64,000 bases of DNA from an uncultured Smithella sp. (GTDB lineage Bacteria > Desulfobacterota > Syntrophia > Syntrophales > Smithellaceae), in assembly GCA_964608995.1 (NCBI GenBank), contig CAZSQS010000001.1, forward strand, positions 130,659-194,658, in the 5' to 3' direction. Position 1 is the stretch's first letter. The number at the start of each line of letters is the position of its first letter. Of the stretch, positions 4,011 through 59,794 are shown piece by piece. The notes beneath the pieces were generated by a model, which saw only the letters and a list, made by a program, of their open reading frames with translations, made no database searches and was not told the DNA's origin. Position numbers and translations under genes: made by a program.

Positions 4011-7000
4011 ATGATCGATACACCCATTACCGTCATCGCCTGTTCCGTCTTGAAACCCGAATTGACCGCCTTGCGCAAAAAAGGGACGATTTCGTTTCCC
4101 GTGCGATTTGTGAGCTCAAAATATCACCTCCAGCCGGAAAAGCTTGCCCGGCGGCTTACAGCGCTGGTGCAAAAGGAACGCGCCTCAGGCGCCCGCGTCA
4201 TCCTGATGTTTGAAGACTGTTTTGCAGGCATGAGCGATCTGACAACCGGCGCGGACGTGGTTCGGGTAGCGGGTGTCAACGCCGCCGAGATGCTTCTGGG
4301 GAAAGAGCGCTACCTGTCGTTTGTCCGGGGCGGCGCCTTTTTTCTGTTTCCTGAATGGGTGACGCACTGGGAAGGAATTCTCTCGGTGTTTCCCGGAATG
4401 GACGCGGAAAGCCAAAAGGCGCTGATGCGCTCAAACCATACCCGCTTTGTGTATCTCGATACCGGTGTGATTGCCGTGCCCTTCGGCAAGCTTCAGGCTT
4501 GCAGTGATTTTTTCGGCCTTCCTTTTGAAGTGGTTGAAACGGGACTGGAGACGCTCGCGGGCGCGCTTCGCGAGGCTCTGGCGCGCCTGAGAACTTCCGG
4601 CGCTCCCCAAAGGCCCGCCTCCGGCGATTCCGGCGCGGCGGCTTTGATGATGCTCGATGTTCTGGCCACCGTCCTTAAAAATCCCGGAAGCCTCTCCGAA
4701 ACAGTGGCCAGGCTCTCCCGGAAAATTCGCGAGTTGACGGGCTCGCGCATGGTGATTCTGGCCCTGAAAAATGAATCCAAAAGCCCCTCCTCCGCCATTC
4801 GCCTGTTATCGGTGTATCCCGAGCGCCACGCCGCCGTGGGCCAGACGCAGGCGGTGCGGCAGATTCTCGAGGCCTCGTTTGGGATGGATTCGGCGACGGT
4901 GTTGCCGGGCTGTCCGGACCCGGAAGAAAAGACGCCGGCACGGGGCAAGCCCTGTCTGGTTCTTCCGATTAAAAGCCCAACGGAGCGCATCGGCACTATT
5001 GTTTCGATCGGTCTTTTGGACGAAAGCTTTGTCGCGCCGATTTTGAACATTTCAGATATTCTTTCAAGCGCAGTGGCCGTTGTTCTGACCAATGCGCTCC
5101 TGCTGGAGGCGCAATCGAAAAACCAGCGAAGGCTGGAAAACGAGATTGAGGAACACCGGCTGCTTTTTGAGCATGCCGTCTCCGCCATTGCCGTTCATGA
5201 AATTGTGCTCGACGAGGCAGGACGTCCGGTGGATTACGTTTTTCTTTCCGCCAATCCCGCGTTTGAGGCGCATACGGGATTGAAGGTGGCCGACGTGATC
5301 GGGCGACGCGCAAGTGACATTTTGCCCGGCATTGAAAAAACGCCGTTTATCGATCTTTACGGCCGGGTGGCGCTGTCGGGGAAACCCATCTCGTTTGAGC
5401 AGTATTCCGATGTATTGAAACGTCATTATTTCATCAGTGCCTACCGGGTGGGGCCTGGCCGGTTTGCGACGGCGTTTACCGACATGACTGCGCGTAAAAA
5501 GGCGGAGGCGGAACTGACCGACGCGCTGGAGGCGCTCAAAGACCGGGAAGAACGCATCAATCTGATGATGGAAGCCACCGACGAGGGGTTCTGGTTTTGG
5601 AACCGGCTGACCCACGAGCTCAAATTCAGCGCGAGCATGCTTCGCCATCTGGGGTTTGATGACGATGGCGCCGGATTCAGTTATCAGTGGTTTGCCGACT
5701 CTATCCATAAAAACAGCGTGTCCGTTTTTGACACGGCGCTCAACGACTATCTGACGGGGAAAAGCAAGTATTACGAGTTTCAATATCTGATCAAGGCAAA
5801 AAACGGCCAGTGGCGCTGGTTCTGGGCGCGCGGCGCCTGCACGGCCTATGGGCCCGACGGCAGCCCGCAGAAATTCATGGGCACACACCGGGACATCACC
5901 GAGCAAAAAAAACTCGGGAAGGAAAGGGAGGCCGCCCAGGAGGCCCTCAGGCAAAAAAGTGAGGAGCTGGAGCGATATTTTACCTCCAGTCTCGATCTGC
6001 TTTGCATTGCGGATACGGAAGGTCATTTTCTTCGTGTAAACCCCGAATGGGGAAACGTGCTGGGCTACAGCGCAGGCGAACTTCACGGGCGGCGATTTCT
6101 GGATTTTGTGCACCCTGACGATCTGGCCGCCACGCTTTCGGTCATCTCGGATCTTGAGGCACAAAACGACGTCTTGAGCTTTGAAAACCGCTATCTGGGC
6201 AAGGACGGCGCGTATCGCTGGATCGAGTGGCGCTCAAAGCCGCAGGGCAATCTGATCTACGCCGCCGCGCGCGACATTACTGCTCGTAAAAATGCGGAAC
6301 TGAATCTGCTGGAGATCAATCAGCGCCTCGAGAAAGCCATGGGGCGCGCCAAAGAGATGGCCCGACAGGCCGGCAAGGCCAACCGGGCGAAAAGCGAATT
6401 TCTGGCGAACATGAGCCACGAAATACGCACGCCGATGAATGCCGTCATCAGCTTAAGCCGGCTGCTTCTGGAAACGCCGCTCGATGATGATCAGCGAGAC
6501 TGCCTCAACAACATCAACGCCTCGTCGCGAATGCTGATGGGGATCATCAACGACATTCTGGATTATTCCAAAATCGAAGCGGGGAAGCTTGAGCTCGATC
6601 ATTCCGAGTTTCGGATCAATGATCTTCTGGAGCAGATGAAAAGTTTGTTTGCCTCGGCCGCCGCCGACAAGCGCCTTCAACTCGTTTTTGAGGCAGCTCA
6701 GGATCTTCCGTCCGTGGTGGTGGGCGATTTCCTGCGCCTGGCCCAGGTGCTGAGCAATCTGATGGGAAACGCCGTCAAGTTTACGAGGCAGGGGTTTGTG
6801 ACCCTGCGGATTTCGCGCACCGGCGGCGATGATACACAGGCGTTGCTATGCTTCGAGGTGAGTGATTCCGGCATTGGTCTGACCCAAGCGCAAATTCGCC
6901 GCTTGTTTAAAGCGTTTTCGCAGGGGGATTCCTCCACGACCCGCGAGTTCGGCGGCACCGGTCTGGGATTGTCCATCAGCCAAAAGCTCGTGGAGCGCAT

Positions 7001-16266: not shown

Positions 16267-17384
16267 GCGCTCTGAGAATTCGGGAACTGGTGCGCAAGGA
16301 ATTTCTTCAGCTTTTTCGTGACAAGCGAATCCGGATGGTGCTTTTTGTGGCCCCCTTTCTGCAGATGCTGGTTTTCGGCTATGTGGTCAATTACGACATC
16401 CGCAACATTTCGATGGCGTTTCTGGACTATTCGCACACGGCTGAAAGCCGCCGTCTGGCCGAGGCTTTCACGGGCGGCCGCATTTTTGCGATCAAGCAGT
16501 ATTTAAAGGATGAGCGCGAGCTCGAAGAGGCGCTCCTGCGGGGAAAGGTGGATATGGCGGTGGTGGTGGGCCCCGATTTTGCAAATCGTATCCGCAAAGG
16601 CCAAAGCGCCGCCGTGCAGATTCTCGCCGATGGCTCGATGAGCAATATGGCCTCGATGCGCATGGCCTACACGATGAGCGTTCTGGAAAAATACAACCGC
16701 GAGATGCTCAGGGAGCTCTATCCGATGTCCATGTCGTATGGCCGAGTGGATGCGCGCCTTCGCGCCTGGTACAACCCGAACCTCGACAGCCGGCACTTTT
16801 TTGTTCCGGGAATTGTCGCCTTCCTGGTCATGCTGTTGTCGCTCCTTTTGACGTCAATTGCGATCATCCGGGAAAAAGAAGCGGGCACGATGGAGCAGTT
16901 GATCGTGACCCCGATAACGGCGGTTGAACTGATCATCGGCAAGACCATCCCCTATATTATTGTGTCTCTGGGGCAAATGATGGCGGTCATTGTGGTGGCG
17001 ATCCTCTGGTTTGATATTCCGCTTCGGGGCAGCATTCCCTTGCTGCTTTTCGCCTCGTGTCTGTTTTTACTGAGCACACTGGGCATCGGGCTTTTTATTT
17101 CGACCGTCTCCACGACGCAGCAGCAGGCGATGATGGCCACCTTCATGATCATCCTGCCCTTTTTTATGCTGAGCGGTTTTGTTTTCCCTATCGCCAATAT
17201 GCCCGAGGGAATCCAGTGGCTGACGCTTTTAAACCCGCTTCGCTATTTTCTGGTGATTATCCGCGGAATCTTTCTCAAGGGGGTGTCGCTGGAGGTGCTC
17301 TGGCCGCAGTTTCTGGCGCTGGCCATTTTGGGCATCATCGTTTTTTCCGGCGCGATGCTGCGCTTTAAAAAGCGTTTGGATTAA
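16263..17384 (+). CDS. ABC-2 permease (YbhR-like)
   Basis: ATGA overlap with the previous stop; WYNPNLDSRHFFVPG, IIREKEAGTMEQLIVTP. Confidence 0.92.
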   Translation: MSALRIRELVRKEFLQLFRDKRIRMVLFVAPFLQMLVFGYVVNYDIRNISMAFLDYSHTAESRRLAEAFTGGRIFAIKQYLKDERELEEALLRGKVDMAVVVGPDFANRIRKGQSAAVQILADGSMSNMASMRMAYTMSVLEKYNREMLRELYPMSMSYGRVDARLRAWYNPNLDSRHFFVPGIVAFLVMLLSLLLTSIAIIREKEAGTMEQLIVTPITAVELIIGKTIPYIIVSLGQMMAVIVVAILWFDIPLRGSIPLLLFASCLFLLSTLGIGLFISTVSTTQQQAMMATFMIILPFFMLSGFVFPIANMPEGIQWLTLLNPLRYFLVIIRGIFLKGVSLEVLWPQFLALAILGIIVFSGAMLRFKKRLD

Positions 17385-17390
17385 AGAACA

Positions 17391-17430
17391 GGCTGCGTCT
17401 CGCTTTTGAGAATTCGGGCGAAACGCAGCC
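17391..17430. terminator. Hairpin between convergent genes (probably bidirectional terminator)
   Basis: GGCTGCGTCTCGC...GCGAAACGCAGCC. Confidence 0.55.
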
Positions 17431-17457
17431 GTTTAGATAAAGAGTTGCGGGCGTCAA

Positions 17458-18180
17458 TTATTCCTTTACTTCTGGTGGCGCCTCGGAGACGTCCAGAAGC
17501 TCCACTTCATAGATCAGCAGGCTTCCGCCCGGAATGACGGGCGGATTTCCCATGTCGCCATAGGCGGTCTCCGGCGGGCAGTAAAATTTTGCCTTGCCGC
17601 CGACTTTCATGAGTTCCACACCTTCCGAAAAACACTGCAGGATTTGTCCCACAATATACTCCGAGGGCTTCTCGCGTTTGTAAGTGCTGTCAAATTCCTT
17701 TCCATTGATAAACGTGGCCGTGTAGTGAACCTTAATTTGCTTGCCTTCGGTGGGTTTGGCTCCGGCGCCCGCCGATATTTCCTGAAAAACAACACCCGAG
17801 GCGGTTTTTTTTGCGCCTTTTTCCGAGGCGGCTTTTTTGAGATACTCAAGCGCGGCCGCTTTGCGCTTTTCACGGCGCTCATCGATAATTTTGCGAAGTT
17901 GCGGCATGCTGGCGTCCGGTTCCGTGGCCAGTTTGTTGCCCGCCACCGCATCGGCCAGCCCCATTTGAACATATTTCCCCTCTTCGGGTGTCAGTTCCAG
18001 CTGGTAGGCGTCTCGATGCATAAACACTCCCAGCGAATAAAAGGCCTTCTCGTCGTCGTTTTTCAGAACGATCTCTGAGGCCTTGTCCTTTGCCTCCTTC
18101 GCAGAAGGCGCAGGAGATTGAGAGCAGGCGCACAAAACCGAGAGGGCGACTACAATCATCATCATGTTCCGGATCATCAT
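17458..18180 (-). CDS. FKBP-type peptidyl-prolyl isomerase (FkpA/Mip-like), lipoprotein signal
   Basis: LSVLCAC lipobox; VKVHY-like IKVHYTATFINGKEFDSTYKR; MKVGGKAKFYCPPETAYG...IPGGSLLIYEVELL. Confidence 0.93.
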   Translation of the reverse strand: MMIRNMMMIVVALSVLCACSQSPAPSAKEAKDKASEIVLKNDDEKAFYSLGVFMHRDAYQLELTPEEGKYVQMGLADAVAGNKLATEPDASMPQLRKIIDERREKRKAAALEYLKKAASEKGAKKTASGVVFQEISAGAGAKPTEGKQIKVHYTATFINGKEFDSTYKREKPSEYIVGQILQCFSEGVELMKVGGKAKFYCPPETAYGDMGNPPVIPGGSLLIYEVELLDVSEAPPEVKE

Positions 18181-18332
18181 TTTTTTTCATCCTCCTTAAG
18201 ATCAATAGGGTATTTTTATCTAAAATAAAAACGCGTTCAAGTCATCATAAATTTCAAGTTCCTGCAACAGATTCCTGTCCCCGCGGGGCGTTGACCCTCC
18301 TGGAAAATATCCGACGGCTTTTTATGGAGGGT

Positions 18333-18365
18333 AAAAAAATCCGGGTGGATTTTCATCCACCCGGA
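18333..18365 (-). terminator. Intrinsic terminator of hydrolase copy 1
   Basis: Minus strand CCGGGTGGAT-GAAA-ATCCACCCGG followed by ATTTTTTT. Confidence 0.85.
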
Positions 18366-18421
18366 AAGGGTTTCTTCCTCTGAAAGTTCAACCAGAGGAT
18401 AGGGTTCAAGGTTAACCGGGG

Positions 18422-19438
18422 CTAGATGCCGGAGGTTCTCCACGTCAAAGCGTCGCTCGGTCTCTTGATGTAAGTCTTCCAGCGGGTGTCGCCATCGAGA
18501 TACGTCTTCTGGAAGGCCAGGGCCAGAGCGCCTGCGTTCGGTGCGAAAACCGTATCCGGCCCGCCCCAATCAAAGTGACCGGCAATCGAGATGACATAAA
18601 GCGCTTTTGGAATACCGCGCGGAATCGCGTTGTAAACGCTTTCCGACTGATACATGCCGCCCAGAACCGTCAAATCCGTTGCGCCGTTCATGAGCAGCAT
18701 CGGGCACTTGGTGTAGCGGCCGCTTTTGTAAATACTGGTTGCGGACAGGTTGTGGCCCGCCAGAGACATGGCCGTTTTCGGACCGGTTTTGGCTGCGTTA
18801 ATCCAGGTGGCGCCGCCGCCCATCGACCAACCCAACAACCCGATTCTGCTGGTGTCGAGTTTGCCCTTAAGCGCATGGCCGTTGCGGGTGTTGAGTTTCT
18901 TGAGCGCATTGTAGGCGCTCCACTGCAGGGAGGCTCTCAGATCCACGGTATCCATCGTGGTGGCCGAATCGCAGTTCACATAAACGATGCCGTGCGAGGC
19001 AAAGAAGGGGCCCCAGTCGGAGTTCGCCGCCTGTGTTCCCATGAAGGGCTGCATGAAGATGAGGGCGGAGAAAGGCGGCGTGGCGTTTTGCGGAATGTAG
19101 ATGGACGCGCTGGCTGTAAATCCGGGGAAGTCACTGGTTCTGCTGGAGCCGTAAGGGCCGCTTTTGCTTGTCGATTTTGGTGTATCATCGCGGCAGATCG
19201 CGCCTGCGGGGCATCCGGGAATCGATCCGGACGAGCTCGATGAACTGGACGAACTCGATGAGCTCGTGGAGTACCACCACGACGAACCTGACGACGAACT
19301 GGACGAACTCGATGAACTGGAGGAACTGGTGGAGAACCACCACTGGGCATCACAGGTTGACGCGGTTGCGCCCGCTAAAAACAGGCACACAAACGACAGA
19401 ATTAAAAAACTCGTAACTGACTTTCTTTTCATAACCAT
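18422..19438 (-). CDS. Secreted PETase/cutinase-like (polyesterase-lipase-cutinase family) alpha/beta hydrolase, copy 1, with WW-polySer N-terminal tether (homologous start 19432)
   Basis: Signal peptide; WGPFFASHG, GKLDTSRIGLLGWSMGGG nucleophile elbow, NGATD (Asp), AGHF (His), LDGDTRW. The motifs are collinear with Ideonella PETase (WGPRLASHG, GKVDTARMGVMGWSMGGG, MDNDTRY), recalled from memory. Confidence 0.88.
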   Translation of the reverse strand: MVMKRKSVTSFLILSFVCLFLAGATASTCDAQWWFSTSSSSSSSSSSSSSGSSWWYSTSSSSSSSSSSSSGSIPGCPAGAICRDDTPKSTSKSGPYGSSRTSDFPGFTASASIYIPQNATPPFSALIFMQPFMGTQAANSDWGPFFASHGIVYVNCDSATTMDTVDLRASLQWSAYNALKKLNTRNGHALKGKLDTSRIGLLGWSMGGGATWINAAKTGPKTAMSLAGHNLSATSIYKSGRYTKCPMLLMNGATDLTVLGGMYQSESVYNAIPRGIPKALYVISIAGHFDWGGPDTVFAPNAGALALAFQKTYLDGDTRWKTYIKRPSDALTWRTSGI

Positions 19439-19648
19439 TTCCCTTCCGTTGAATGATAAGAGTTTTTTTGTTTTCGCGGCCCTTGCACTCTAATCCTCAG
19501 ATGGCAAAGTTCGCCCCTTTACGCGTTGTCTGTTTTCGGCCTTGGCTGACCCCCTGTTTCCAATAGTCCCTTTATCTCAAATAATAAAGTGGTAACGCTG
19601 TTTCGTTTTTACTATTTCCTGCAAATATTTAAATATATTTTATAAAAT

Positions 19649-19664
19649 TGCATGAAGTGTGCCA
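19649..19664 (-). promoter_or_regulatory. Sigma-54 (-24/-12) promoter of hydrolase copy 1
   Basis: Minus strand TGGCACACTTCATGCA = GG-N10-GC with TGGCAC; about 210 nt upstream of the start. Confidence 0.8.
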
Positions 19665-19760
19665 TGTTTGCTATAGTCATGTTATGTATCTGTATCTTTT
19701 AACGTATTTAATTATACGATGAACGGACGTTCATTTTTGCTTTTCAAAACCGTCTCAAAA

Positions 19761-19813
19761 GTGTTTCGTAAAAATTAAAAATGGGACACAAAATGGGACA
19801 CATTGTGGGGCGT
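19761..19813. promoter_or_regulatory. Candidate enhancer (UAS) array for a sigma-54 activator, copy 1
   Basis: GTGTTTC at 19761; ATGGGACAC at 19781 and 19793 (12-bp period); degenerate third unit at 19805. Confidence 0.6.
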
Positions 19814-19880
19814 TTTATCCGGACGCAGGCATTTCCCGACCTTTCAGTGAGGCTTGTCACGCAAAAAATTGTCACAAAGT

Positions 19881-19915
19881 AAAAAAATCCGGGTGGATGT
19901 GAAATCCACCCGGAT
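19881..19915 (-). terminator. Intrinsic terminator of hydrolase copy 2
   Basis: Minus strand ATCCGGGTGGAT-TTCAC-ATCCACCCGGAT followed by TTTTTTT; homologous to 18333-18365. Confidence 0.85.
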
Positions 19916-19965
19916 GGGGTTTATACCTCTATATGAAAGCAGAGGGGTTGTAAGGTTGACCGGGT

Positions 19966-20958
19966 CTAGATGTCGGAGCTTCTCCACGTCAAGGAATCGA
20001 GCGGTCTCTTGATGTAAGTCTTCCAGCGGGTGTCGCCATCGAGATACGTCTTCTGGAAGGCCAGGGCCAGAGCGCCTGCGTTCGGTGCGAAAACCGTATC
20101 CGGCCCGCCCCAATCAAAGTGACCGGCAATCGAGATGACATAAAGCGCTTTTGGAATACCGCGCGGAATCGCGTTGTAAACGCTTTCCGACTGATACATG
20201 CCGCCCAGAACCGTCAAATCCGTTGCGCCGTTCATGAGCAGCATCGGGCACTTGGTGTAGCGGCCGCTTTTGTAAATACTGGTTGCGGACAGGTTGTGGC
20301 CCGCCAGAGACATGGCCGTTTTCGGACCGGTTTTGGCTGCGTTAATCCAGGTGGCGCCGCCGCCCATCGACCAACCCAACAACCCGATTCTGCTGGTGTC
20401 GAGTTTGCCCTTAAGCGCATGGCCGTTGCGGGTGTTGAGTTTCTTGAGCGCATTGTAGGCGCTCCACTGCAGGGAGGCTCTCAGATCCACGGTATCCATC
20501 GTGGTGGCCGAATCGCAGTTCACATAAACGATGCCGTGCGAGGCAAAGAAGGGGCCCCAGTCGGAGTTCGCCGCCTGTGTTCCCATGAAGGGCTGCATGA
20601 AGATGAGGGCGGAGAAAGGCGGCGTGGCGTTTTGCGGAATGTAGATGGACGCGCTGGCTGTAAATCCGGGGAAGTCACTGGTTCTGCTGGAGCCGTAAGG
20701 ACCACTCTTGCTTGTTGATTTTGGTGTATCCTCGCGGCAGATCGCGCCTGAGGGACATCCGGGAATCGATCCCGACGAACTCGATGAGCTCGATGAACTG
20801 GTGGAATACCACCACGTTGAACCTGATGATGAGCTCGATGAGCTGGAGGAACTGGTGGAGAACCACCACTGGGCTTCACAGGTTGACGCGGTTGCGCCTG
20901 CTAAAAACAGGCACACAAACGACAGAATCAAAAGGTTTTTAACTGACTTTCTTTTCAT
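19966..20958 (-). CDS. Secreted PETase/cutinase-like alpha/beta hydrolase, copy 2
   Basis: Same motifs as copy 1; catalytic core identical; shorter Ser runs; different C-terminal tail (RPLDSLTWRSSDI versus RPSDALTWRTSGI). Confidence 0.88.
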   Translation of the reverse strand: MKRKSVKNLLILSFVCLFLAGATASTCEAQWWFSTSSSSSSSSSSGSTWWYSTSSSSSSSSSGSIPGCPSGAICREDTPKSTSKSGPYGSSRTSDFPGFTASASIYIPQNATPPFSALIFMQPFMGTQAANSDWGPFFASHGIVYVNCDSATTMDTVDLRASLQWSAYNALKKLNTRNGHALKGKLDTSRIGLLGWSMGGGATWINAAKTGPKTAMSLAGHNLSATSIYKSGRYTKCPMLLMNGATDLTVLGGMYQSESVYNAIPRGIPKALYVISIAGHFDWGGPDTVFAPNAGALALAFQKTYLDGDTRWKTYIKRPLDSLTWRSSDI

Positions 20959-21188
20959 AAATTTTTCCTTCCATCTGAAATAATAAATGATGAATTTCCC
21001 CTTTGCGCAGGCCTCGCTCTCTCATCCTTCAGATCGCCGGGGCTGCCCCTTCTACGCGTTGCCCTCTCAGGTTCCAGGCAATATCAATCGCTATTTTGAC
21101 TGATCTTACCAATAAACAATCTCAAACAATCCGCATGCAGAATTGTTGTGATTGCTCACTGGCCTATCTTATTATTGTCAATATTGTA

Positions 21189-21204
21189 GGCACGATGTAT
21201 GCCA
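21189..21204 (-). promoter_or_regulatory. Sigma-54 (-24/-12) promoter of hydrolase copy 2
   Basis: Minus strand TGGCATACATCGTGCC = GG-N10-GC; same offset to the upstream repeat array as in copy 1. Confidence 0.7.
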
Positions 21205-21300
21205 AAACGTCATGAATTGTTCTATGTATTTGTAATAATTGCATTTATTAAATAAAGCCCTGAAAGAGCCTTCGCGGGTGAACCTGAAGCTGTTTTAAAT

Positions 21301-21353
21301 GTGTTTCATGAATGTCTAAAATGGGACACTTCGTGGGACACAATTTGAGACAT
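21301..21353. promoter_or_regulatory. Candidate enhancer (UAS) array, copy 2
   Basis: GTGTTTC at 21301; ATGGGACAC 21321, GTGGGACAC 21333, TTGAGACAT 21345 (12-bp period). Confidence 0.62.
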
Positions 21354-21560
21354 TTTATTGCGGGTCTTGCAGATTAGACTGTTGATTTGAACGAGATGTT
21401 GCGATTCCATTAAAACTGAAAAAGCGGCCATTGAAAAATTTCAACTGGCAAATGAGTCTCAAATATGTTTCAGTTTGTTGCACTTAAAAATATTAGAAAA
21501 CATAACGAAGGCCGAACGAAAACCCTCTTTTCAGGCGGTAAAAAGGAGAATTCAAAGAAC

Positions 21561-23723
21561 ATGGCCATCAATGTCAAGGAAGAAGCGCCATTATTACAGA
21601 TTGACAGTTTTTCCCTGAAAGATAATACGGAAAACATATCATCCGGATGGGATAAAATGCTGGTGGATGCCATCGACCCCTCTTCGGTCAGCATTCAGGA
21701 TCTCGTCAGCATTGTGCTTTGGTTTCTGGAAAAAACACAGGACGAATGGACGCGGTTCGTCAACGGGGCCGATGATCTGGAGAGTTCCGTCATTCCCGAT
21801 CATATTGCCGAGGCCTGGGGGCGGTGCCGCAGCCGCCGGATGGACCCTTTCATAACGGAGGCGCAAAATCAGGTTTTAACCGGGCAGGCGCTCGAGGCGC
21901 TTCTGACGCAAAACAGGACCCTGATTGAAATCAGCAGGCCCTTCATCACCAAACTTTTCCAATGCACCAATACCACAAGCTTTGGCGTGGCGCTTTTCGA
22001 CCGCGAGGGCTATCTTCTGGACGTTCAGTCGGATGAGCGGTTTGTCTCGGACAACGACAAAACCCGATGGATCTGCGGGGCGCGCTGGGCGGAGCAGGAC
22101 GCCGGGAATAATTCCATCGATTACGTGCTGCGTTATGGAAAGCCGATCCAGGTCCTGTGCACGCAGCATTACCTTCAGCGCCTCAAGGAGGTCACGGCGT
22201 CAAGCGCGCCCATTCATGATCCCGAAGGCGTTTTAATCGGCGGCGTGGCGCTGACCACCTTTTATTTCGGTACGCATCCCCACACACTGGGCATGGCGGT
22301 GGCCGCCGCCCAGGCCATTGAAAATGAGTTGCGCATCACGAAGGCCTTTGCCGAATGCCGGCGGGCTTTTTTTCAGGCGGATATGGCCTACGGCCTGCAA
22401 AAGGCGATTACCGACGCCATGACGGATGCGATTGTCGCCGTAAATACCGAAGGGCGGATCACGGCGATCAATCCCCGCGCCGAACATCTTTTTGGCCTGG
22501 ATTGTGAGGATGTGAAGGGAAAACATCTTCTGGATATCTATCCCGGCGCGGATAACCGCTATTTCTGGGATATTCTGCGCTCCGGCCAGGCCGTAAGCGA
22601 TGCGGAAGTGCAAATCCGCACCCTTTCGGGGAGGGGGGATTATACGCTGACGTGCAATCGCATCCTGTCTTCCGATGGCGCCGCTATCGGCAAAGTGCTG
22701 ATCTTTTCGGAAATTCGGAAAATCAAGTCTCTGGTCAACCGGTTTTCCGGCGCCAGAGCCAATTTCAAGTTTTCCGACATTCAGGGGAAAAACGAGAAGT
22801 TTCGGGCTCTGATCGATCAGGCGGGGATGATTTCAAAAAGCGCCTCCAATGTTTTGCTCCTTGGAGAAAGCGGCTCCGGCAAGGACATTCTGGCGCAGGC
22901 CATTCATAACGAAAGCCCCCGTGCAGACGGGCCCTATATCGCCATCAACTGCGCGGCCATTCCCCGCGATCTCATTGCCAGTGAGCTGTTCGGTTATGAT
23001 GAGGGCGCGTTTACCGGTTCGCGGCGCGGCGGCAATCAGGGAAAATTCGAACTGGCCGACGGGGGCACGATTTTTCTCGATGAAATCGCGGAAACCCCAC
23101 TGGAGCTTCAAGCGGCGCTTCTGCGCGTCATTGAAGACAAGTGCGTGGTCCGCATCGGCGGCAATTCCAACCGGGTGGTGGATGTCCGGATTATCGCCGC
23201 CACCAATAAGGACCTCTTCGAGGAGGTTTCCCGGGGCAATTTCCGCAAGGATTTGTATTTCCGGCTCAACGTGTTCAATCTTCATTTGCCGCCGCTTCGC
23301 GAGCGGACGGACGATATTGCGCTTTTAGTGGAGATATTCATGAAGAAGTATGCGTCCAAAATGGGGAAGTCCCTTCGCGGGGTGGATGATCGGGTGTGGG
23401 AGGTTTTTTTGCAGCATGCCTGGCCGGGCAATATCCGCGAGCTTCAAAATGTCGTGGAGCGCATGGTCAACTTTGCCACATCGGAGCGGTTAACGTATGA
23501 CCTTATTCCGCCCGAGATTACGGGGGTGGCTCGAAAATCCTACGGCAAACTCGATCTGGAATCGCCCGTGGAAACGGAAAAAAGGATGATCCGGCACATG
23601 CTGACGCTTCGCTACAGCCGCCAGAAAATTGCAAAACAGCTTAACGTGTCGCGCGCGACGCTGTTTCGGCGAATGCGCAAATACGGCCTGCTGGAAAAAG
23701 ACTTTCCACAAGATGCGCCCTGA
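21561..23723 (+). CDS. Sigma-54-dependent enhancer-binding protein, GAF-PAS-AAA+-Fis HTH (AcoR/DhaR-like)
   Basis: IAEAWGRCRSRRMDP GAF start, LLLGESGSGKD, ASELFGYDEGAFTGS, LADGGTIFLDEI, RKDLYFRLNV, WPGNIRELQN, IAKQLNVSRATLFRRMRKYG; AAGGAG RBS before ATG 21561. Confidence 0.95.
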   Translation: MAINVKEEAPLLQIDSFSLKDNTENISSGWDKMLVDAIDPSSVSIQDLVSIVLWFLEKTQDEWTRFVNGADDLESSVIPDHIAEAWGRCRSRRMDPFITEAQNQVLTGQALEALLTQNRTLIEISRPFITKLFQCTNTTSFGVALFDREGYLLDVQSDERFVSDNDKTRWICGARWAEQDAGNNSIDYVLRYGKPIQVLCTQHYLQRLKEVTASSAPIHDPEGVLIGGVALTTFYFGTHPHTLGMAVAAAQAIENELRITKAFAECRRAFFQADMAYGLQKAITDAMTDAIVAVNTEGRITAINPRAEHLFGLDCEDVKGKHLLDIYPGADNRYFWDILRSGQAVSDAEVQIRTLSGRGDYTLTCNRILSSDGAAIGKVLIFSEIRKIKSLVNRFSGARANFKFSDIQGKNEKFRALIDQAGMISKSASNVLLLGESGSGKDILAQAIHNESPRADGPYIAINCAAIPRDLIASELFGYDEGAFTGSRRGGNQGKFELADGGTIFLDEIAETPLELQAALLRVIEDKCVVRIGGNSNRVVDVRIIAATNKDLFEEVSRGNFRKDLYFRLNVFNLHLPPLRERTDDIALLVEIFMKKYASKMGKSLRGVDDRVWEVFLQHAWPGNIRELQNVVERMVNFATSERLTYDLIPPEITGVARKSYGKLDLESPVETEKRMIRHMLTLRYSRQKIAKQLNVSRATLFRRMRKYGLLEKDFPQDAP

Positions 23724-23778
23724 CGGGGCGCGCGGCGGCTTTGAAGGCGCCGAAGGCAAGGCGGCCGGGGGGAGTGGC

Positions 23779-26373
23779 TCAGTTTGCCGCCATGGCTTGG
23801 TTCACCTTGCAAACCAGATTTCGGAGGCTGAAGGGTTTTTGCAGAAACTGCACGCCCTCTTCGAGGATGCCGTGACGGGCGATGGCGTCGGCGGTATAGC
23901 CCGACATGAACAGCACCTTGATGTCCGGCCGGATTTCAACCAGTTTGTCTCTTAATTCCCGGCCGCTCATCACCGGCATGACCACGTCGGTGATCACCAG
24001 ATCAATGCAGGTGGCTCTGTCTTGACACAGTGTGATGGCCTCTTGGGGCGTCTGGGGAACCGTGACGGCGTAACCGATGGATTCCAGCATATTTTTCGTG
24101 GCTTCCAAAACCATTCCATCATCTTCCACCAGCACAATGTTTCCCGTTGCCGAAAAGACCGGTTCTTCCGGAATCGCCTGATCGGCAATTTTTATTTCGG
24201 TGGTGCGCGGGAAGTAGATCGTGAAGGTGGTTCCCTGCCCCGGTTCGCTGTAAACGGAAATAAACCCGTCATTTTGCTTGACGATGCCGTAAACGGTGGC
24301 CAGTCCCAGCCCTGTGCCCTTGCCCGCTTCCTTCGTCGTAAAGAAGGGCTCAAAAATATTTTGCTGCATGTCCTTATTCATGCCGACGCCGTTGTCGCTG
24401 ACGCACAGCTGAACGTAGTAGCCGGGTTTCGCGCCGATATGCGCGCGGCAATAGGCCGCGTCCAGCACACAGTTGGCCGTTTCAAGCGTCAGCTTGCCGC
24501 CTGCGGGCATCGCATCCCGGGCGTTGACGGCGAGGTTCATGAGGATCTGTTCAACCTGTGACGGATCGAGTTTGATGGCCCAGAGGTCCTTGCCGGGCGC
24601 ATACTTGAACTGAACATCCTCCCCGATGAGGCGCACCAGCGCCTTTTGCGTATGTGAAACCAGATCGTTGAGATTGATAATTTTCGGGGCGATGATCTGC
24701 TTTCGGGAAAAGGCCAGAAGCTGGGCGGTAATATCGCGGGAACGGATGGCGGCTTTTTCAATTTCCGTGATATCTCTGAGCACGGGATGCTGCTGGGGCA
24801 GGCGCATCTTGGCCAGATCCACATAGCCCAGAATGACGCTCAACATGTTATTGAAGTCATGCGCCACGCCGCCGGCCAGCCGTCCGACGGTTTCCATCTT
24901 TTGCGCCTGGAGCAGTTGGCGCGCCAGTTTTTCTTTTTCTTCAACGGCCCGTCTGCGGGCGGTGATGTCCCGGCCCGCAAGCAATATGCCTGTGGGCCGT
25001 CCTGTATCGCTGCGGGAGAAGGTGGCCGAAACCTCCAGCCAGAGCGTATCGCCGTTTTTATGGTTCAGTTCCATTTCAACGGTTCTGATGCGGTGCGAAT
25101 CCAGGGAGGGGCCGCCCGCTTCACGGGCCAGCGCCGACGCCAGCGCGCTTTTGGCCGATGCGAAGGACTCCGGCGTTAAAAGCCGGTCCATCGGGATGTT
25201 CTCCATGTCTGCGGGCGTATAGCCGGTCAGCCATTTGCACGACGGACTGACGTATGTGCAGTTCAGATCAAGATCCGTCGTCAGGATGATCTCGTGGATG
25301 TTTTCAACGATCATCCGGTAGCGCTGTTCGCTTTCGCGCAGGGCCATCTCCATGGCCTTTTGTTCCGTGATTTTTCGGCCGACCAGGACGATTTCAAAGG
25401 GCCGGCCATGCGCATCGCGGTGAAAATAGGCTGTGAGCTCCTGCCAGAAAGTATGGCCGTCCTTGTGATACATCTCCAGTTCCACACTGACGGACGGCTG
25501 GGGCGCACGCGACGCGCCTTCGCCGAATTCCCGGTCGAAGGCGTCCGCCAGCATTCTTTCCGCCAGCGCATAAGAGGCGGGCGTCATCATTTGATTGAAA
25601 GGCAGGGCGATGGCTTCATCGGGGGTGAAGCCGCTGAAACGGATTTCCGACGGGCTGACGTAAGTCAGGTTGAGCTCGAGATCCATCGTGGAGATCGAAT
25701 CATGCATGTTTTCGATAATCAAGCGGTAGCGCTTTTCGTTGGCCTTGATCATTTCTTCCGTCTGTTTTTGGCGGGTAATGTCCCGCGCGACACCGACGAT
25801 CTCCAGGGGCGCGCCGTTTTCATCCAGGTGAAGCTCGGCGCTGACTTCCGCCCAGAAGCGCTCTTTGTTTTTCTTGGTGATCTGTGTTTTGAAAACGACT
25901 TTTGCGGGGTGTTGACTGCCGCTATGGGCGCAGGCCAGCTCCGAATCCAGGAGCGCCTGCGCTTTGGACCGGGCATCTGGCGGCAGGATATCTTGAATGG
26001 ACTCTCCCAGAAGATCATCGGGACGGACCCCCGCGATGGGCAGGACCGACGGACTGACATACGTTAACCGCCAGTTCAAATCCGCGGTCCAGATGATGTC
26101 AAGCGTGTGATCGGCAATCAGCCCGAGCTGCTTGTCGCGCTCCTGGACGGAACGCTCCGCCCAGGCTTTTTGAGCGGCGTCCTCTTTCAGGCGGGTGCTT
26201 TCAGCGTTATTTTGCGCTGCGGCCGCAAGGCAGGCATTGACGGCCCCGGCGATGGCCCCGAGTTCGTTATCGCCTGCCGTAAAGGACAGCCGGCCTGCGT
26301 AGTCGCCTTTTGCCGCTTTTTCAAGGGATTCAATGATTTGCTTCGCCAGATCCGTCTTGCGTGATGATGTCAT
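23779..26373 (-). CDS. Cytoplasmic hybrid histidine kinase (HAMP-like, 3x PAS, HisKA/HATPase, REC)
   Basis: GGVAHDFNNML H-box, [33 protein letters not shown]; no TM helix evident. Confidence 0.93.
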   Translation of the reverse strand: MTSSRKTDLAKQIIESLEKAAKGDYAGRLSFTAGDNELGAIAGAVNACLAAAAQNNAESTRLKEDAAQKAWAERSVQERDKQLGLIADHTLDIIWTADLNWRLTYVSPSVLPIAGVRPDDLLGESIQDILPPDARSKAQALLDSELACAHSGSQHPAKVVFKTQITKKNKERFWAEVSAELHLDENGAPLEIVGVARDITRQKQTEEMIKANEKRYRLIIENMHDSISTMDLELNLTYVSPSEIRFSGFTPDEAIALPFNQMMTPASYALAERMLADAFDREFGEGASRAPQPSVSVELEMYHKDGHTFWQELTAYFHRDAHGRPFEIVLVGRKITEQKAMEMALRESEQRYRMIVENIHEIILTTDLDLNCTYVSPSCKWLTGYTPADMENIPMDRLLTPESFASAKSALASALAREAGGPSLDSHRIRTVEMELNHKNGDTLWLEVSATFSRSDTGRPTGILLAGRDITARRRAVEEKEKLARQLLQAQKMETVGRLAGGVAHDFNNMLSVILGYVDLAKMRLPQQHPVLRDITEIEKAAIRSRDITAQLLAFSRKQIIAPKIINLNDLVSHTQKALVRLIGEDVQFKYAPGKDLWAIKLDPSQVEQILMNLAVNARDAMPAGGKLTLETANCVLDAAYCRAHIGAKPGYYVQLCVSDNGVGMNKDMQQNIFEPFFTTKEAGKGTGLGLATVYGIVKQNDGFISVYSEPGQGTTFTIYFPRTTEIKIADQAIPEEPVFSATGNIVLVEDDGMVLEATKNMLESIGYAVTVPQTPQEAITLCQDRATCIDLVITDVVMPVMSGRELRDKLVEIRPDIKVLFMSGYTADAIARHGILEEGVQFLQKPFSLRNLVCKVNQAMAAN

Positions 26374-30170: not shown

Positions 30171-31241
30171 GTGCCGGTTGAGATAGCGCCAAAAAAAATC
30201 CCGGTCGTTTTATTGTATAATCTTGATCCCCAATGGACACAGGCGGAAAAACAAGAAGTCCTTTCTTTATCAGCTAAGCTTAGTCAATCCTTAAGTGATA
30301 TCGGATTTTCCACGGTCATGGTTCCCGTAAGTGACGACAATCTCGCCTTGCATCTTGCATCATTTGATCCTGAAGACTATATCATCTTTAACTGGTGTGA
30401 AGAATTACCCGGCATCCATCACAGCGAGTGGCTTGTCGCCAGGCGCCTCGAGATGCTGGGCTATACCTTTACCGGCGCCGACTCGGAGGCGCTCGCGCTG
30501 GCGCAGGACAAGTTTCGCGTCAAGACGCTTCTGGATCAGGCCGCCATTCCAACGCCCGCCTGGCATGTGTATTCCCGGGGCGAAACGATTGCCTGGGACC
30601 GCTTTCCCGCCATTGTCAAACCCATGAACGAGCATTGCTCCTCGGGCATCACGCGTGATGCCGTCGTGCTCGATTCCGCAGAGCTTGCGCGCCGCCTGCC
30701 CTTTATCTGGGATCATTACCATCAACCGGCGCTGGTGGAGGACTTCATTGACGGGCGTGAATTTCACGTCTCCGTCTGGGGCAACGACACGCTTACGGTA
30801 TTGCCGGTGGCGGAAATGGATTTTTCATCTTTCCCCAATGTCAAAGACCGGCTTTGCACCTACGATGCCAAGTTTCTTCCCGGCTCCGACCCGTATGAAA
30901 ACATTTCGACGCTTCTGCCCGCGCCGCTTTCCGCCTTAGAGCTTGCGGCGCTCGAAGGGGTCTCCCGCGCCGCCTACCGGGCGCTTGGCTGCCGCGATTA
31001 CGCCCGCCTGGATATTCGTCTGCGCGACAACACCTTTTATGTGCTTGATGTCAATCCCAATGCGGATATCAGCATCGACGCCAGCATGGCCTGTGCCGCC
31101 GAGGTTGCGGGGATGAACTATGGACAGATGGGTTCCGTTATCGTGCGGATGGCCGCAGCGAGGCATCCGGTTTTGAGCCGTCTGGCTGCAAGGCGCCCGG
31201 TCTCTGGAAAGGTTTTAAAGGCGCGAAGGCCGCGCCCCTGA
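30171..31241 (+). CDS. D-Ala-D-Ala-ligase-like ATP-grasp protein of unknown substrate
   Basis: YTFTGADS...LAQDK, AIVKPMNEHCSSGI, LVEDFIDGREFHV, CRDYARLDIR, YVLDVNPN; GTG start after GGAGG. Confidence 0.85.
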   Translation: MPVEIAPKKIPVVLLYNLDPQWTQAEKQEVLSLSAKLSQSLSDIGFSTVMVPVSDDNLALHLASFDPEDYIIFNWCEELPGIHHSEWLVARRLEMLGYTFTGADSEALALAQDKFRVKTLLDQAAIPTPAWHVYSRGETIAWDRFPAIVKPMNEHCSSGITRDAVVLDSAELARRLPFIWDHYHQPALVEDFIDGREFHVSVWGNDTLTVLPVAEMDFSSFPNVKDRLCTYDAKFLPGSDPYENISTLLPAPLSALELAALEGVSRAAYRALGCRDYARLDIRLRDNTFYVLDVNPNADISIDASMACAAEVAGMNYGQMGSVIVRMAAARHPVLSRLAARRPVSGKVLKARRPRP

Positions 31242-57052: not shown

Positions 57053-59794
57053 TTATGCGAATCCGTCTATGATTTCAGTTGGTTGGCTTTCGTCAAGGAT
57101 TTGCCGGATGGCCCGGGCCAGTTCGCTGCGGGAGGCGGGTTTCATGATGAAGGACTTAATGCCCAGCCGGGCAGCTTTTTCCTCATCCATATAGGAGCTA
57201 AAGCCGGTGCAAAGCATAATGCGCTGCTGTGGCCGTACCCGCAGAATCGCTTGGGCGAGATCGCTTCCCGAAAGATGCGGCATGGTCATGTCTGTAATAA
57301 TCAGATCATAATTTTCCGGATCTGCTTTGAAACGCTCCAGCGCCTCGCGGCTGTCTGTAAACGCTGTGACCGAATACCCCAGCGCGCTCAAGTGTGTATA
57401 AGCCAGTTCGGTCAGATCGGCTTCATCGTCAACAAAAAGGAGGCGCTCGGTGCCGCCCGGAATGTTTTCATCCGTCCGGAGGCGCGGTTCGATGGTGGCC
57501 TGTTCGATGAGAGGCAGAAAGATGTGAAATGTTGCACCCTTGCCCGGGCGGCTTTCCACCTGGACCGCGCCGCTATGGTTTTTCACGATGCCGTAAACAA
57601 CGGACAGGCCCAGCCCGGTGCCTTTGCCGATGTCTTTGGTGGTGAAGAACGGGTCGAATATACGGGGAAGAATTGTCTCGTCAATGCCGGGGCCCGAGTC
57701 GGCTACCGTCAGGCGAACGTATTGACCGGGGCGCAAGGAATGTTCTTCCGTCAAAGGGGCGGCATCTATTGATTCCGTGGACAGCGAGATTGTCAGCTGT
57801 CCGCCCTTTTCCCCCATGGCCTGAGCGGCATTGGTGCACAGGTTCATGACGACCTGATGCATCTGGGTGATGTCCGCTAAAACTGTATAGGCCTGGTTGG
57901 CGATTTTTTGCCGGATGTCAATCGTTTTGGGCATGGTGGCCCGCAGAAGCTTGATTTCTTCCTTGACAATCAGTTTCAGATCAATCGGTCTTTTGTCTTG
58001 TTCGACGTGACGGCCAAACGCCAGAATCTGATTGACGAGATTTTTGGCGCGCTCCGCCGCCACTAAAAGTCTTTTGATATTTTCATGTTGCATAGGCTGA
58101 TCGTGGCTGTCGCGGATGAGTTCCGCATATCCCATGATGGCGGCGAGGATATTATTAAAGTCATGCGCGATGCCCCCGGCCAGCGTTCCCACAGCTTCCA
58201 TCTTCTGGGCCTGAAACAGTTGCTTTTCGAGTTTGAGCCGCTCCTCTTCCGCTTTTTTGCGCTCGGTGATGTCCCGCGCGACAAACAAAATACCCGAGGG
58301 TTGTCCGTTTTCTGTTAAAAGCTGAGAGCGGACATCCACAATAAAGGGCTGGCCGGAGAGATTTTTCATCTCCCACTCGAAACTGAACGCATCGGCTACG
58401 CCATTGCGCCGTTTTTCCATCAGGGCTTCCTGCACTGGGCGGTATTGGTCCGGTGTAAAGTCTGTAATGCTCACGCCCACCGGGTCGAGCCCCTGCAAGA
58501 GGTCATAGACAGCTTTGTTGGCGAAGGTAATGCAGAGGTTCAAATCCGTTGTTATAATAAAGTCATAGGCGCATTCCGACACCATCTGATACCGTTGATT
58601 GCTCTCTTGCAGCGCCCGCTGCGCTTTTCTCTGATCTGTAATATCACGGATAACATGCGCGATACCGATTACTTCTCCCTCGGTGTTGACGGCCGGATCT
58701 GCAACGATATATAAGACGCGGCCATCTGTCTCTTCAAGCTCCGTCACTTCTCGCGTTTTACTTTTCAGGCAGCGCACAAGCGGGCAATGGTCGATGGGAC
58801 ACGTGGCGTCGTGCACCAGTGCATGGCATTTTTGACCTTTAATCGTTTTGATATCCCGATGAACAAACTCCGCGAAGGCCCGGTTTGATTTTTCAATGCA
58901 ACCCTCCGGTGTCAGAAAGACCATGGGGTCGAGCATGGCGTCAAACGTACTTCGCCACTTCTGGCTGGCTTCACGGATTTCTGTTTCAGCCTTTTTGCTT
59001 AACGTAATATCGCGAATATTGCCGATGACCCGGACGACCCGTCCTTCAGAGCGCTCAGTCTTTCCGATCGTGCGAATCCATTTTTTATGTCCTTGCGGCG
59101 TTTGAAGTTGCACTTCAAAGTCAAAGTCGAGGCCGTGGTGGATGGCGTCAGAAAAGGCATTTTTGAGAAGATCGCGTGTTTTTGCATCATAGAACAGGCT
59201 GCTCCAGTTTGCCTCATTCGGATTAAAGCTCTGGGGCACCTCGTAGATGCGATAGGTTTCAAGGCTCCAGGTCAATTGATCTGATAAAACATCATATTCC
59301 CACCCGCCTGTATGGGACAGAGCCTGAATGTCGTTGAGCATTTTTTCATTTCGGCGCAACAGGGCTTCAGTGGCTTTTTGTTCGGCCATCTGATCGTGCA
59401 GGCGCGCTGTGCGCTGAGCCACCATCTTTTCCAGACGGGCCGAATACGCTTGATTGAGGCTGCGCTGCACCCGTTCTTCCAGAATGACGGCCAGCATAAA
59501 ACAGAAATTGTTGAGATAATCCCGGTAGGGGGCAAAAGCCGCCTCATCAGAAATTTGCAGGATCAATTCCCCTTGGCAGGCGTTTCCAACCATCAGGGGA
59601 AAATGATCGGTGTTTTCGTCGGGGCTGTCCTCCCGACAGGGGCTGTGCCGGACGGAGACAATGCCCGGAATATCCGAAAGTCCCCGGCAGACAAAACTAA
59701 AAATAGTCTTTTCATCGGGCAGTCCGGCGAGGATGCTCTGCATCAGGAGCAATTGGCCAAGAATTTCTGCCTTCAGGACGGTCTGTTGCTTCAT
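57053..59794 (-). CDS. Hybrid histidine kinase (GAF-like N-terminus, 3x PAS, HisKA/HATPase, REC)
   Basis: [32 protein letters not shown]...LIITDMTMP; cytoplasmic. Confidence 0.93.

What the first reader, a model, noticed from the sequence alone, without database searches (positions are those of the whole stretch)
19649..21353. Promoter architecture conserved to the base between the two copies despite diverged intergenic DNA
Seen: each copy has GG-N10-GC (TGGCACACTTCATGCA; TGGCATACATCGTGCC). Exactly 117 bp further upstream an array of (A/G)TGGGACAC-like units starts with 12-bp periodicity (19781/19793/19805 versus 21321/21333/21345), with GTGTTTC 20 bp before the first unit in both. The surrounding AT-rich spacer has otherwise diverged. 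Established: sigma-54 activators bind enhancers about 80-150 bp upstream and contact the polymerase by looping. Inference: these are the binding sites of the neighbouring activator, and the conserved spacing indicates selection on both copies. The motif could be used to find the rest of the regulon.
Basis: partly seen in the sequence, partly recalled or inferred. Interest (0 to 1): 0.7.

Follow-up and report, generated by a model that had tools for sequence, protein, structure and literature searches.

The report
Sigma-54 promoters with enhancers before polyesterase genes
Two tandem genes for secreted PETase-like esterases each carry a sigma-54 promoter and, at the same distance upstream, a cluster of TGTCCCA sites that are most likely bound by the activator encoded next door; this is an ordinary kind of bacterial switch, seen here on unusual target genes.

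Summary
Both copies have a GG-N10-GC promoter on the minus strand (19649-19664 and 21189-21204). ATGGGACAC units begin exactly 117 bp further upstream, and GTGTTTC lies 20 bp before the first unit. The DNA between enhancer and promoter is only 36-40% identical, about what unrelated loci show.

The array is larger than described. Three direct TGTCYCA half-sites sit at -148, -136 and -124 from the T of TGGCA. Two inverted half-sites sit at -104 and -93, and GTGTTTC is the -104 one.

- Nine of 13 related promoters place half-sites at -124±1 and -104±1.
- Exact TGTCCCA/TGGGACA occurs 13 times in 810 bp of related enhancer windows, against 0.17 expected.
- Among 28 metagenome loci with PETase homologues, only the two that encode the activator have the sites and the promoter.
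- Other activators of the same clade carry TGTTTCA-type clusters beside their own sigma-54 promoters.

The target genes are PETase-like secreted hydrolases (PF12740). The organism comes from anaerobic wastewater or bioreactor metagenomes. I found no RNA data, so the start site, sigma-54 dependence and binding remain inferred.

Verdict: a new member of a known kind, of moderate interest.

The parts
19649..19664 (-). Sigma-54 -24/-12 promoter of copy 1, TGGCACACTTCATGCA. The predicted start site is near 19638, giving a leader of about 200 nt.
   Evidence: (best consensus match in the window, 10 of 11). The start site is inferred, not measured.
19751..19812 (-). Enhancer (UAS) of copy 1. Half-sites in gene orientation are CGCCCCA(-148, degenerate) > TGTCCCA(-136) > TGTCCCA(-124) | < CGAAACA(-104) < TGAGACG(-93). 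Their + strand coordinates are 19806-12, 19794-800, 19782-88, 19762-68 and 19751-57.
19665..19750 (-). AT-rich spacer of copy 1 (about 30% GC). It contains a conserved block, TACAGATACATA, at 19683-19694.
   Evidence: No match to the E. coli IHF consensus.
18422..19438 (-). Copy 1, a PETase-like secreted alpha/beta hydrolase of 338 aa, with a signal peptide, a WW/Ser-rich linker and the GWSMGGG motif.
   Evidence: (PF12740, 98.6 bits)
18340..18365 (-). Intrinsic terminator after copy 1.
21189..21204 (-). Sigma-54 -24/-12 promoter of copy 2, TGGCATACATCGTGCC. The predicted start site is near 21178, giving a leader of about 220 nt.
   Evidence: The start site is inferred.
21291..21352 (-). Enhancer (UAS) of copy 2, in the intergenic region it shares with the divergent activator gene. 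Half-sites are TGTCTCA(-148) > TGTCCCA(-136) > TGTCCCA(-124) | < TGAAACA(-104) < TAAAACA(-93).
21205..21290 (-). AT-rich spacer of copy 2. It contains the conserved block TACAAATACATA at 21223-21234.
19966..20958 (-). Copy 2, a PETase-like secreted hydrolase of 330 aa.
19887..19915 (-). Intrinsic terminator after copy 2. It separates the two transcription units.
21465..23723 (+). One-component sigma-54 enhancer-binding protein, with an N-terminal sensor region, PAS, AAA+ (GESGSGK, GAFTGS) and a C-terminal HTH. The real start is probably the ATG at 21561.
   Evidence: (homologues align from residue ~53 onward)
19462..19528 (-). Conserved purine-rich leader segment of copy 1 (CAACGCGTAAAGGGGC...GCGAAAACAAAAAAAC). 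Its role is unknown.
   Evidence: No Rfam hit and no consensus structure.
20995..21061 (-). Conserved purine-rich leader segment of copy 2.

Best explanation
Each PETase-like gene is its own transcription unit, driven by a sigma-54 promoter and closed by its own terminator.

About 100-150 bp upstream of the -24 element lies a composite enhancer of five TGTCYCA-type half-sites spaced 11-12 bp apart. That spacing puts them on roughly one face of the helix. The inner two form an inverted pair, TGTCCCA-N13-TGRRACA.

The one-component activator encoded divergently at 21465-23723 binds these sites through its C-terminal HTH. When its N-terminal sensor and PAS domains receive an unknown signal, it assembles into an ATPase ring. 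It then reaches the sigma-54 holoenzyme by looping the AT-rich spacer and opens the promoter.

Both paralogues are therefore switched on together.

Shown by sequence and comparison: the motifs, their register, their co-occurrence with the activator, and the domain content of the activator.

Inferred: binding, looping, the start site, sigma-54 dependence and the nature of the signal.
For: Promoters:
- GG-N10-GC is present in both copies, and 19664 is the best match in 64 kb.
- The same element (TGGCAY-N5-NTGY) occurs in 11 related promoters.

Enhancer:
- The heptamer clusters are unique to these two sites in the window.
- Nine of 13 promoters have a forward unit at -124±1 and a reverse unit at -104±1.
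- Exact TGTCCCA/TGGGACA occurs 13 times in 810 bp of non-window enhancer windows against 0.17 expected, Poisson P 1.6e-20. The loci are partly orthologous, so they are not fully independent.

Link to the activator:
- A homologous activator is divergent from PETase-like arrays in L001-L006, L008, L089 and L091-L094.
- In the 26 metagenome loci with PETase homologues but no activator there is no sigma-54 promoter, and none has a heptamer cluster upstream of the PETase-like gene. The one pair found (L098) lies downstream of the gene.
- In 758 kb around 80 other activators, the only four clusters of 3 or more heptamers lie within 250 bp of the activator gene. Three of them have a sigma-54 promoter about 100-145 bp away.

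Activator domains: Sigma54_activat 1.8e-64, AAA lid and HTH_8/HTH_50, plus GAFTGS and Walker A.

Separate units: terminators follow each copy.

Selection: the spacer is randomised (0.36 identity) while the register is kept.

The architecture matches published EBP regulons. These show divergent EBP genes, TGT...ACA half-sites and multiple UAS sites roughly 100-250 bp upstream of the promoter (PMC4641369, PMC6615313).
Against: - There is no expression or start-site data. No RNA run holds the locus.
- rpoN is not known for this genome, since only a 64-kb window is available.
- Copy 2's promoter is a weaker consensus match, 8 of 11 by my count from the sequence, with a -12 element of GTGCC.
- The GAFTGA loop reads GAFTGS.
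- The inner inverted pair is 20 bp centre to centre. That is wider than a classical HTH-dimer site, so the binding geometry is unclear.
- The spacers have no IHF-consensus site.
- The right-hand half-sites in the window are degenerate (CGAAACA, TGAGACG, TAAAACA).
Confidence: 0.8

Rival explanations
1. The equal spacing is only inheritance from the duplication. No indel happened to occur, and the repeats are relics with no present function in one or both copies.
For: The two units descend from one duplication. At the indel density of the 5' leader, which has at least 5 events in about 210 nt and lengths of about 200 against 220 nt, about 2.3 events are expected in a 97-bp spacer. That gives a chance of about 0.1 for none (my estimate).
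Against: Substitutions have randomised the spacer to 0.36 identity, while the enhancer stays at 0.68 and the promoter at 0.75. The same -124/-104 register is found in lineages with unalignable spacers.
Confidence: 0.07
2. The TGTCCCA units are bound by a regulator other than the neighbouring activator. This could be a repressor, or a response regulator partnered with the hybrid kinase at 23779-26373.
For: No binding data exist. A hybrid PAS kinase/receiver gene lies next to the activator. Relatives such as L089 encode several paralogous activators close by.
Against: Only the activator is consistently adjacent in related loci. The kinase is absent there. The hybrid kinase has no DNA-binding domain. 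Sites and activator appear and disappear together. Related half-sites sit beside other activators of the clade.
Confidence: 0.08
3. The genes are transcribed from sigma-70 promoters, and the GG-N10-GC matches are chance.
For: A 9-of-12 sigma-70-like match (ATGGCA-17-TAAAAT) overlaps the copy 1 element. The loose pattern TGGCAY-N6-TGCW is expected 0.62 times per window by chance.
Against: The sigma-70 match is absent from copy 2. TGGCA sits at a fixed distance from the enhancer in 13 promoters across several lineages. A sigma-54 activator is encoded alongside.
Confidence: 0.05

Closest known systems
AcoR / PacoX of Pseudomonas putida KT2440 (PMC10107126)
   Same: A one-component sigma-54 activator with a non-receiver N-terminal sensor. 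Per the paper, PacoX needs RpoN and AcoR and is helped by IHF, and one of the two acoR promoters also responds to RpoN and AcoR.
   Different: The targets there are acetoin catabolic genes, whereas here they are secreted PETase-like hydrolases. No IHF consensus site was found here. The AcoR binding motif is not given in the passages I read, so the motifs could not be compared. Sequence relationship is at clade level only.
One-component EBP regulons of Desulfovibrio vulgaris and Clostridiales, reconstructed by comparative genomics (PMC4641369, PMC6615313)
   Same: EBP genes divergent from sigma-54 promoters, motifs built from TGT...ACA half-sites (9-12 bp apart in three motif groups), several UAS sites per promoter, and the UAS typically around 100-250 bp upstream.
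   Different: The TGTCCCA half-site and the mixed arrangement of three direct and two inverted units are not, to my knowledge, among the described motifs. The figures could not be read. The target genes are of a different kind.
NtrC at glnAp2 of E. coli (from my own knowledge, not checked here)
   Same: Multiple activator sites about 100-140 bp upstream nucleate an oligomer that contacts sigma-54 holoenzyme by DNA looping.
   Different: NtrC is a phosphorylated response regulator that binds classical 17-bp dyads. Here there is no receiver domain, and the half-sites are 11-12 bp direct repeats plus a wide inverted pair.
DhaR of E. coli (NCBIfam NF008485, the best full-length match)
   Same: The same domain order, aligned over residues 74-714 of the activator read from the ATG at 21561.
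   Different: The score of 369 bits is below the 551-bit cut-off, so this is not an equivalog. From my own knowledge, DhaR acts at a sigma-70 promoter. The protein here keeps a GAFTGS loop and sits beside -24/-12 promoters.

Membership tests
Sigma-54 (-24/-12) promoter | GG and GC dinucleotides exactly 10 nt apart within a TGGCAC-N5-TTGCW-like context, upstream of the gene and in its orientation | tested here: met
   TGGCACACTTCATGCA matches 10 of 11 consensus positions. TGGCATACATCGTGCC matches 8 of 11 by my count from the sequence. Both lie 200-220 nt before the ATG on the gene strand.
Sigma-54 (-24/-12) promoter | Transcription starts about 12 nt after the GC and depends on RpoN | not testable with these tools
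   No RNA run holds the locus or a relative. rpoN was not looked for beyond the window.
Sigma-54 (-24/-12) promoter | Conservation of the element in orthologous and paralogous promoters | tested here: met
   TGGCAY-N5-NTG(C/T) is present in all 13 promoters compared. In the group with 674-aa activators the -12 element reads TTGT rather than TTGC.
bEBP upstream activating sequence (enhancer) | A repeated motif, usually with dyad symmetry, about 80-250 bp upstream of the -24/-12 element | tested here: met
   Five half-sites lie at -148 to -93, with an inverted inner pair. Clusters of this kind are expected 0.01-0.33 times per window.
bEBP upstream activating sequence (enhancer) | The motif co-occurs with the cognate activator across genomes | tested here: met
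   The motif is present in every locus that has the activator. Among the 26 loci without it, none has a cluster upstream of the PETase-like gene and none has the promoter. Searches show related half-sites beside other activators of the clade.
bEBP upstream activating sequence (enhancer) | Physical binding by the activator, and loss of activation when the sites are mutated | not testable with these tools
   Needs EMSA or footprinting and reporter assays.
Bacterial enhancer-binding protein (sigma-54 activator) | An AAA+ sigma-54 interaction domain with Walker A and a GAFTGA loop, plus a C-terminal HTH | tested here: met
   PF00158 at 1.8e-64, AAA_lid_14 and HTH_8/HTH_50. GESGSGK and GAFTGS are present, the last residue of the loop being S rather than A.
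DhaR / PrdR / AcoR equivalogs (NCBIfam) | Score above the curated equivalog cut-off | tested here: not met
   DhaR scores 369 against a cut-off of 551, and PrdR 380 against 795. The protein belongs to the clade but not to a named equivalog. MimR_N is recorded for its homologues but was not detected with the local Pfam copy.
PETase-like hydrolase (Pfam PF12740) | Score above the gathering threshold, and a GxSxG nucleophile motif | tested here: met
   98 bits against a threshold of 28. GWSMGGG is present. The best solved relative is the PE-H polyester hydrolase 6sbn, at 92 bits. The BHET hydrolase BdeA equivalog is not met, at 68 against 520. Activity on polyester was not tested.

The most novel reading that the evidence does not exclude
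The activator and its TGTCCCA enhancers form a dedicated regulon for several secreted PETase-like polyesterases in uncultured anaerobic bacteria of wastewater and bioreactor communities. These are probably Desulfobacterota. The activator's sensor and PAS domains would respond to a product of ester or polyester breakdown, making this a natural inducible polyester-sensing switch in anaerobes. The evidence supports the regulatory link. It says nothing about the signal or the true substrate.
Probability: 0.25. Interest if true: 0.6.

Novelty: new member of a known kind. Interest (0 to 1): 0.4.

Why it matters
The mechanism itself is textbook: a sigma-54 promoter, an enhancer and a divergently encoded activator. 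Three points give it some value.

1. It links a defined sensor protein and a defined DNA motif to PETase-like genes in anaerobes. The natural role and induction of such enzymes are essentially unknown. Finding the inducer would reveal the enzymes' natural substrate and could yield a biosensor.

2. The half-site register at -124/-104 is kept to within a base in lineages whose spacers are randomised. That makes this a clean natural case for studying face-of-helix constraints in enhancer-dependent transcription.

3. The TGTYYCA half-site appears to be shared by a wide AcoR/DhaR-like activator clade. This can seed regulon prediction in many uncultured genomes.

Tried and rejected
- **Rfam** scan of 17000-24000 at E ≤ 1 gave nothing.
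- **Leader RNA structure:** RNAalifold on nine leaders gave -0.58 kcal/mol and no convincing covariation. I dropped the idea of a structured leader.
- **IHF:** a scan with the E. coli consensus, allowing one mismatch, found no site in the window spacers.
- **RNA evidence:** no RNA run holds the window locus. The three RNA runs listed for L094 laid no reads.
- **Source organism:**
Its best hit was a Desulfomonilia MAG at 48% identity, which has no site cluster.
  - The look-up of the window's own gene call, P0001, was not on record.
  - The organism therefore remains unnamed.
- **Other sites in the window:** the isolated TGGGACAC at 58795 and the sigma-54-like match at 30870(-) both lie inside ORFs, so I treat them as chance.
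- **Sigma-70 alternative:** rejected, because it is not conserved between the copies.
- **Literature:** searches for PETase with sigma-54, for MimR and for anaerobic polyester hydrolases found nothing relevant.
- **MimR_N** was not detectable in the window's activator with the local Pfam copy.

Full report
**Observation**

Two paralogous genes lie in tandem on the minus strand: copy 1 at 18422-19438 and copy 2 at 19966-20958.
- The promoters are TGGCACACTTCATGCA at 19649-19664 and TGGCATACATCGTGCC at 21189-21204.
- ATGGGACAC units begin at 19781 and 19793, and at 21321 and 21333. In both copies that is exactly 117 bp beyond the promoter.
- GTGTTTC lies 20 bp before the first unit in both copies.

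The two upstream regions sit at a constant offset of 1540 bp from the enhancer through the promoter.

**Comparison with chance**
- The window holds 30 TGTYYCA/TGRRACA heptamers against 31 expected, so the heptamer is not generally enriched.
- The only clusters are the two in question. Clusters of 2 or more are expected 0.33 times, and clusters of 3 or more 0.01 times.
- Exact TGGGACAC occurs five times in 64 kb, four of them here. The fifth lies inside a kinase ORF.
- The copy 1 promoter is the best sigma-54 consensus match in the window.

**Anatomy**

In gene orientation, counting from the T of TGGCA, copy 2 reads:
- TGTCTCA at -148
- TGTCCCA at -136
- TGTCCCA at -124
- inverted TGAAACA at -104
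- inverted TAAAACA at -93

Copy 1 reads CGCCCCA (degenerate), TGTCCCA, TGTCCCA, inverted CGAAACA and inverted TGAGACG at the same positions.

The enhancer as a whole is a composite of about 62 bp, with units 11-12 bp apart.

Each gene ends in its own intrinsic terminator, at 19887-19915 and 18340-18365. These are two separate transcription units. The predicted leaders are about 200 and 220 nt.

**Divergence between the two copies**

The catalytic-domain DNA is 100% identical over about 660 bp in this assembly. The spacer between enhancer and promoter is far more diverged.
- It is 38/96 identical ungapped, against 28% expected at random.
- Its proximal 85 bp are 0.36 identical, no more than between unrelated loci (0.25-0.42).
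- The enhancer block is 0.68 identical and the promoter 0.75.

Contigs from three independent metagenomes span 19319-20031 without a single difference, so the tandem arrangement is real. Contigs over the catalytic domain carry 6-21 variants. The perfect identity of the two copies may therefore be specific to this strain or to this assembly.

**The genes**

Both products are PETase-like hydrolases.
- They match PF12740 at 98 bits against a threshold of 28.
- They carry GWSMGGG, a signal peptide and a WW/Ser-rich linker.
- The best solved relative is the polyester hydrolase PE-H, 6sbn.

The divergent gene at 21465-23723 encodes a one-component sigma-54 activator.
- It has PAS, Sigma54_activat (1.8e-64), an AAA lid and HTH_8/HTH_50.
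- It carries GESGSGK and GAFTGS.
- Its best full-length family match is DhaR, below the cut-off.
- Homologues align only from about residue 53 onward, so the true start is probably the ATG at 21561.

**Comparative evidence**

The closest homologues of the hydrolase come from anaerobic reactor and wastewater metagenomes.

In L001-L006, L008, L089 and L091-L094, a homologous activator is transcribed divergently from one to three PETase-like genes. Pfam MimR_N is on record for these activators. The intergenic DNA in these loci carries the same half-sites and a sigma-54 promoter.

When the loci are aligned on the promoter, nine of 13 have a forward unit at -124±1 and a reverse unit at -104±1. Their spacers cannot be aligned with the window's.

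Exact TGTCCCA/TGGGACA occurs 13 times in the 810 bp of non-window enhancer windows, against 0.17 expected. The orthologous loci among them are not fully independent.

Two PETase paralogues that are not adjacent to the activator have their own TGTCCCA-N4-TGTYCCA pair. It lies 120-122 bp before a sigma-54 promoter (L001 16993 and L091 7077).

**Controls**
- Of 28 metagenome loci with PETase homologues, only the two that encode the activator have the promoter and a site cluster upstream of the gene.
- In 758 kb around 80 more distant activators there is no PETase gene and no TGTCCCA cluster.
- The only four clusters of 3 or more heptamers in those 758 kb are of the TGTTTCA/TGTTCCA type. All four lie within 250 bp of the activator gene, and three have a sigma-54 promoter about 100-145 bp away.
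- The half-site therefore looks like a trait of this activator clade, and the window uses a CCC variant of it.

**Mechanism**

The best reading is the standard enhancer-dependent one. The activator binds the half-site array, oligomerises when its sensor is triggered, loops the AT-rich spacer (29-37% GC) and remodels the sigma-54 closed complex.

Published regulon reconstructions describe the same layout (PMC4641369, PMC6615313). The AcoR/PacoX system of Pseudomonas putida is a worked experimental example (PMC10107126).

Binding, looping, start sites, RpoN dependence and the signal are all inferred. No transcript data could be found.

On their own, the two window copies give only modest evidence for selection on spacing, about P = 0.1 by my estimate from the leader's indel density. 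The register shared across lineages is the strong argument.

**Verdict**

This is a new member of a known kind. The unusual part is the target: duplicated PETase-like secreted hydrolases in an uncultured anaerobe.

Noticed in passing
window 18480-19135 versus 20024-20679: The catalytic-domain DNA of the two copies is 100% identical over about 660 bp, while the flanks and promoters are diverged. This points to gene conversion. Contigs from other metagenomes carry 6-21 variants in this stretch, so the perfect identity may be specific to this strain or an effect of assembly.
   Followed up: partly
window 19462-19528 and 20995-21061; also L007 ~5895-5960, L090 ~5905-5985, L091 ~5895-5960: A purine-rich leader segment is conserved in sequence 50-110 nt before the ATG of many of the PETase-like genes compared. 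It reads AACGCG(T/G)A..GGGC...GAAG...AGGG.TGCGCAAA.CAAAAA and carries many GGA motifs. It has no Rfam hit and no consensus structure. It may be a protein-binding site on the mRNA.
   Followed up: partly
L089 4985-5130 and 5284-5440; similar hairpins at L007 ~5690-5735 and L090 ~5713-5747: In the closest relative, two sigma-54 promoters are each followed by a duplicated segment of about 140 nt. Each segment ends in a GCTGCCGGGAG...CTCCCGGCAGC-Tn terminator hairpin, well before the PETase gene. This could be a small RNA or an attenuator. The window has nothing like it.
   Followed up: no
L001 ~11036, L002 ~11997, L006 ~7020, L091 ~5578: An element of about 120 nt is strongly conserved and has no -24/-12 motif. 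It begins ATGTGTCCCACAATTGTTTCACC, which is a direct pair of half-sites, and ends in the hairpin GGAGCAGGGGGTGGATGCCCCCTGCTC. It lies upstream of a PETase paralogue.
   Followed up: no
L001 8554, L002 9627, L006 5446, L091 5294 and 7199, L093 1027, L094 2278: Promoters of the group with 674-aa activators read TGGCAC-N5-TTGTA. Their -12 element is GT rather than the canonical GC, and this is conserved across the loci.
   Followed up: no
window 21455-21472 (+): AGTCTCA-N4-TGTTTCA is a direct pair of half-site-like units. It lies about 90 bp before the activator's probable start at 21561 and covers the ORF's first ATG at 21465. It may be an autoregulatory site. A weak sigma-70-like match at 21294-21322 (+) also abuts the copy 2 enhancer.
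   Followed up: no
window 19240-19350 and 20790-20880: The N-terminal linker consists of repeated QWW(F/Y)S-poly-Ser modules, whose length differs by 9-nt indels between the copies. The collection's gene call for the window's hydrolase (P0001) is 210 aa, covering only 64% of the 330-aa ORF. L089 has an in-frame TAG in its linker.
   Followed up: no
L090 ~5380-5440 before the promoter at 5504: A different, shorter PAS-type sigma-54 activator sits next to a PETase-like gene. Its enhancer has the same layout but uses TGTCTA/TAGACA half-sites (TGTCTAaaaatTGTCTA...TAGACAtaaacTAGACA).
   Followed up: no
window 17458-18180 (-): An FKBP-type peptidyl-prolyl isomerase with a signal-like N-terminus lies directly downstream of the PETase-like gene. 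The same arrangement is seen in L007 and L089, so the synteny is conserved and the protein may be a folding helper.
   Followed up: no
L010 4775-4815, L011 3468-3570, L028 6407-6453, L060 6324-6374: Distant activators of the same clade, from Syntrophomonadaceae, Acidaminobacteraceae, Caldithrix and Nitrospiraceae MAGs, carry TGTTTCA/TGTTCCA half-site clusters next to their genes. Three of the four have a sigma-54 promoter nearby. This suggests a half-site shared across the clade.
   Followed up: partly
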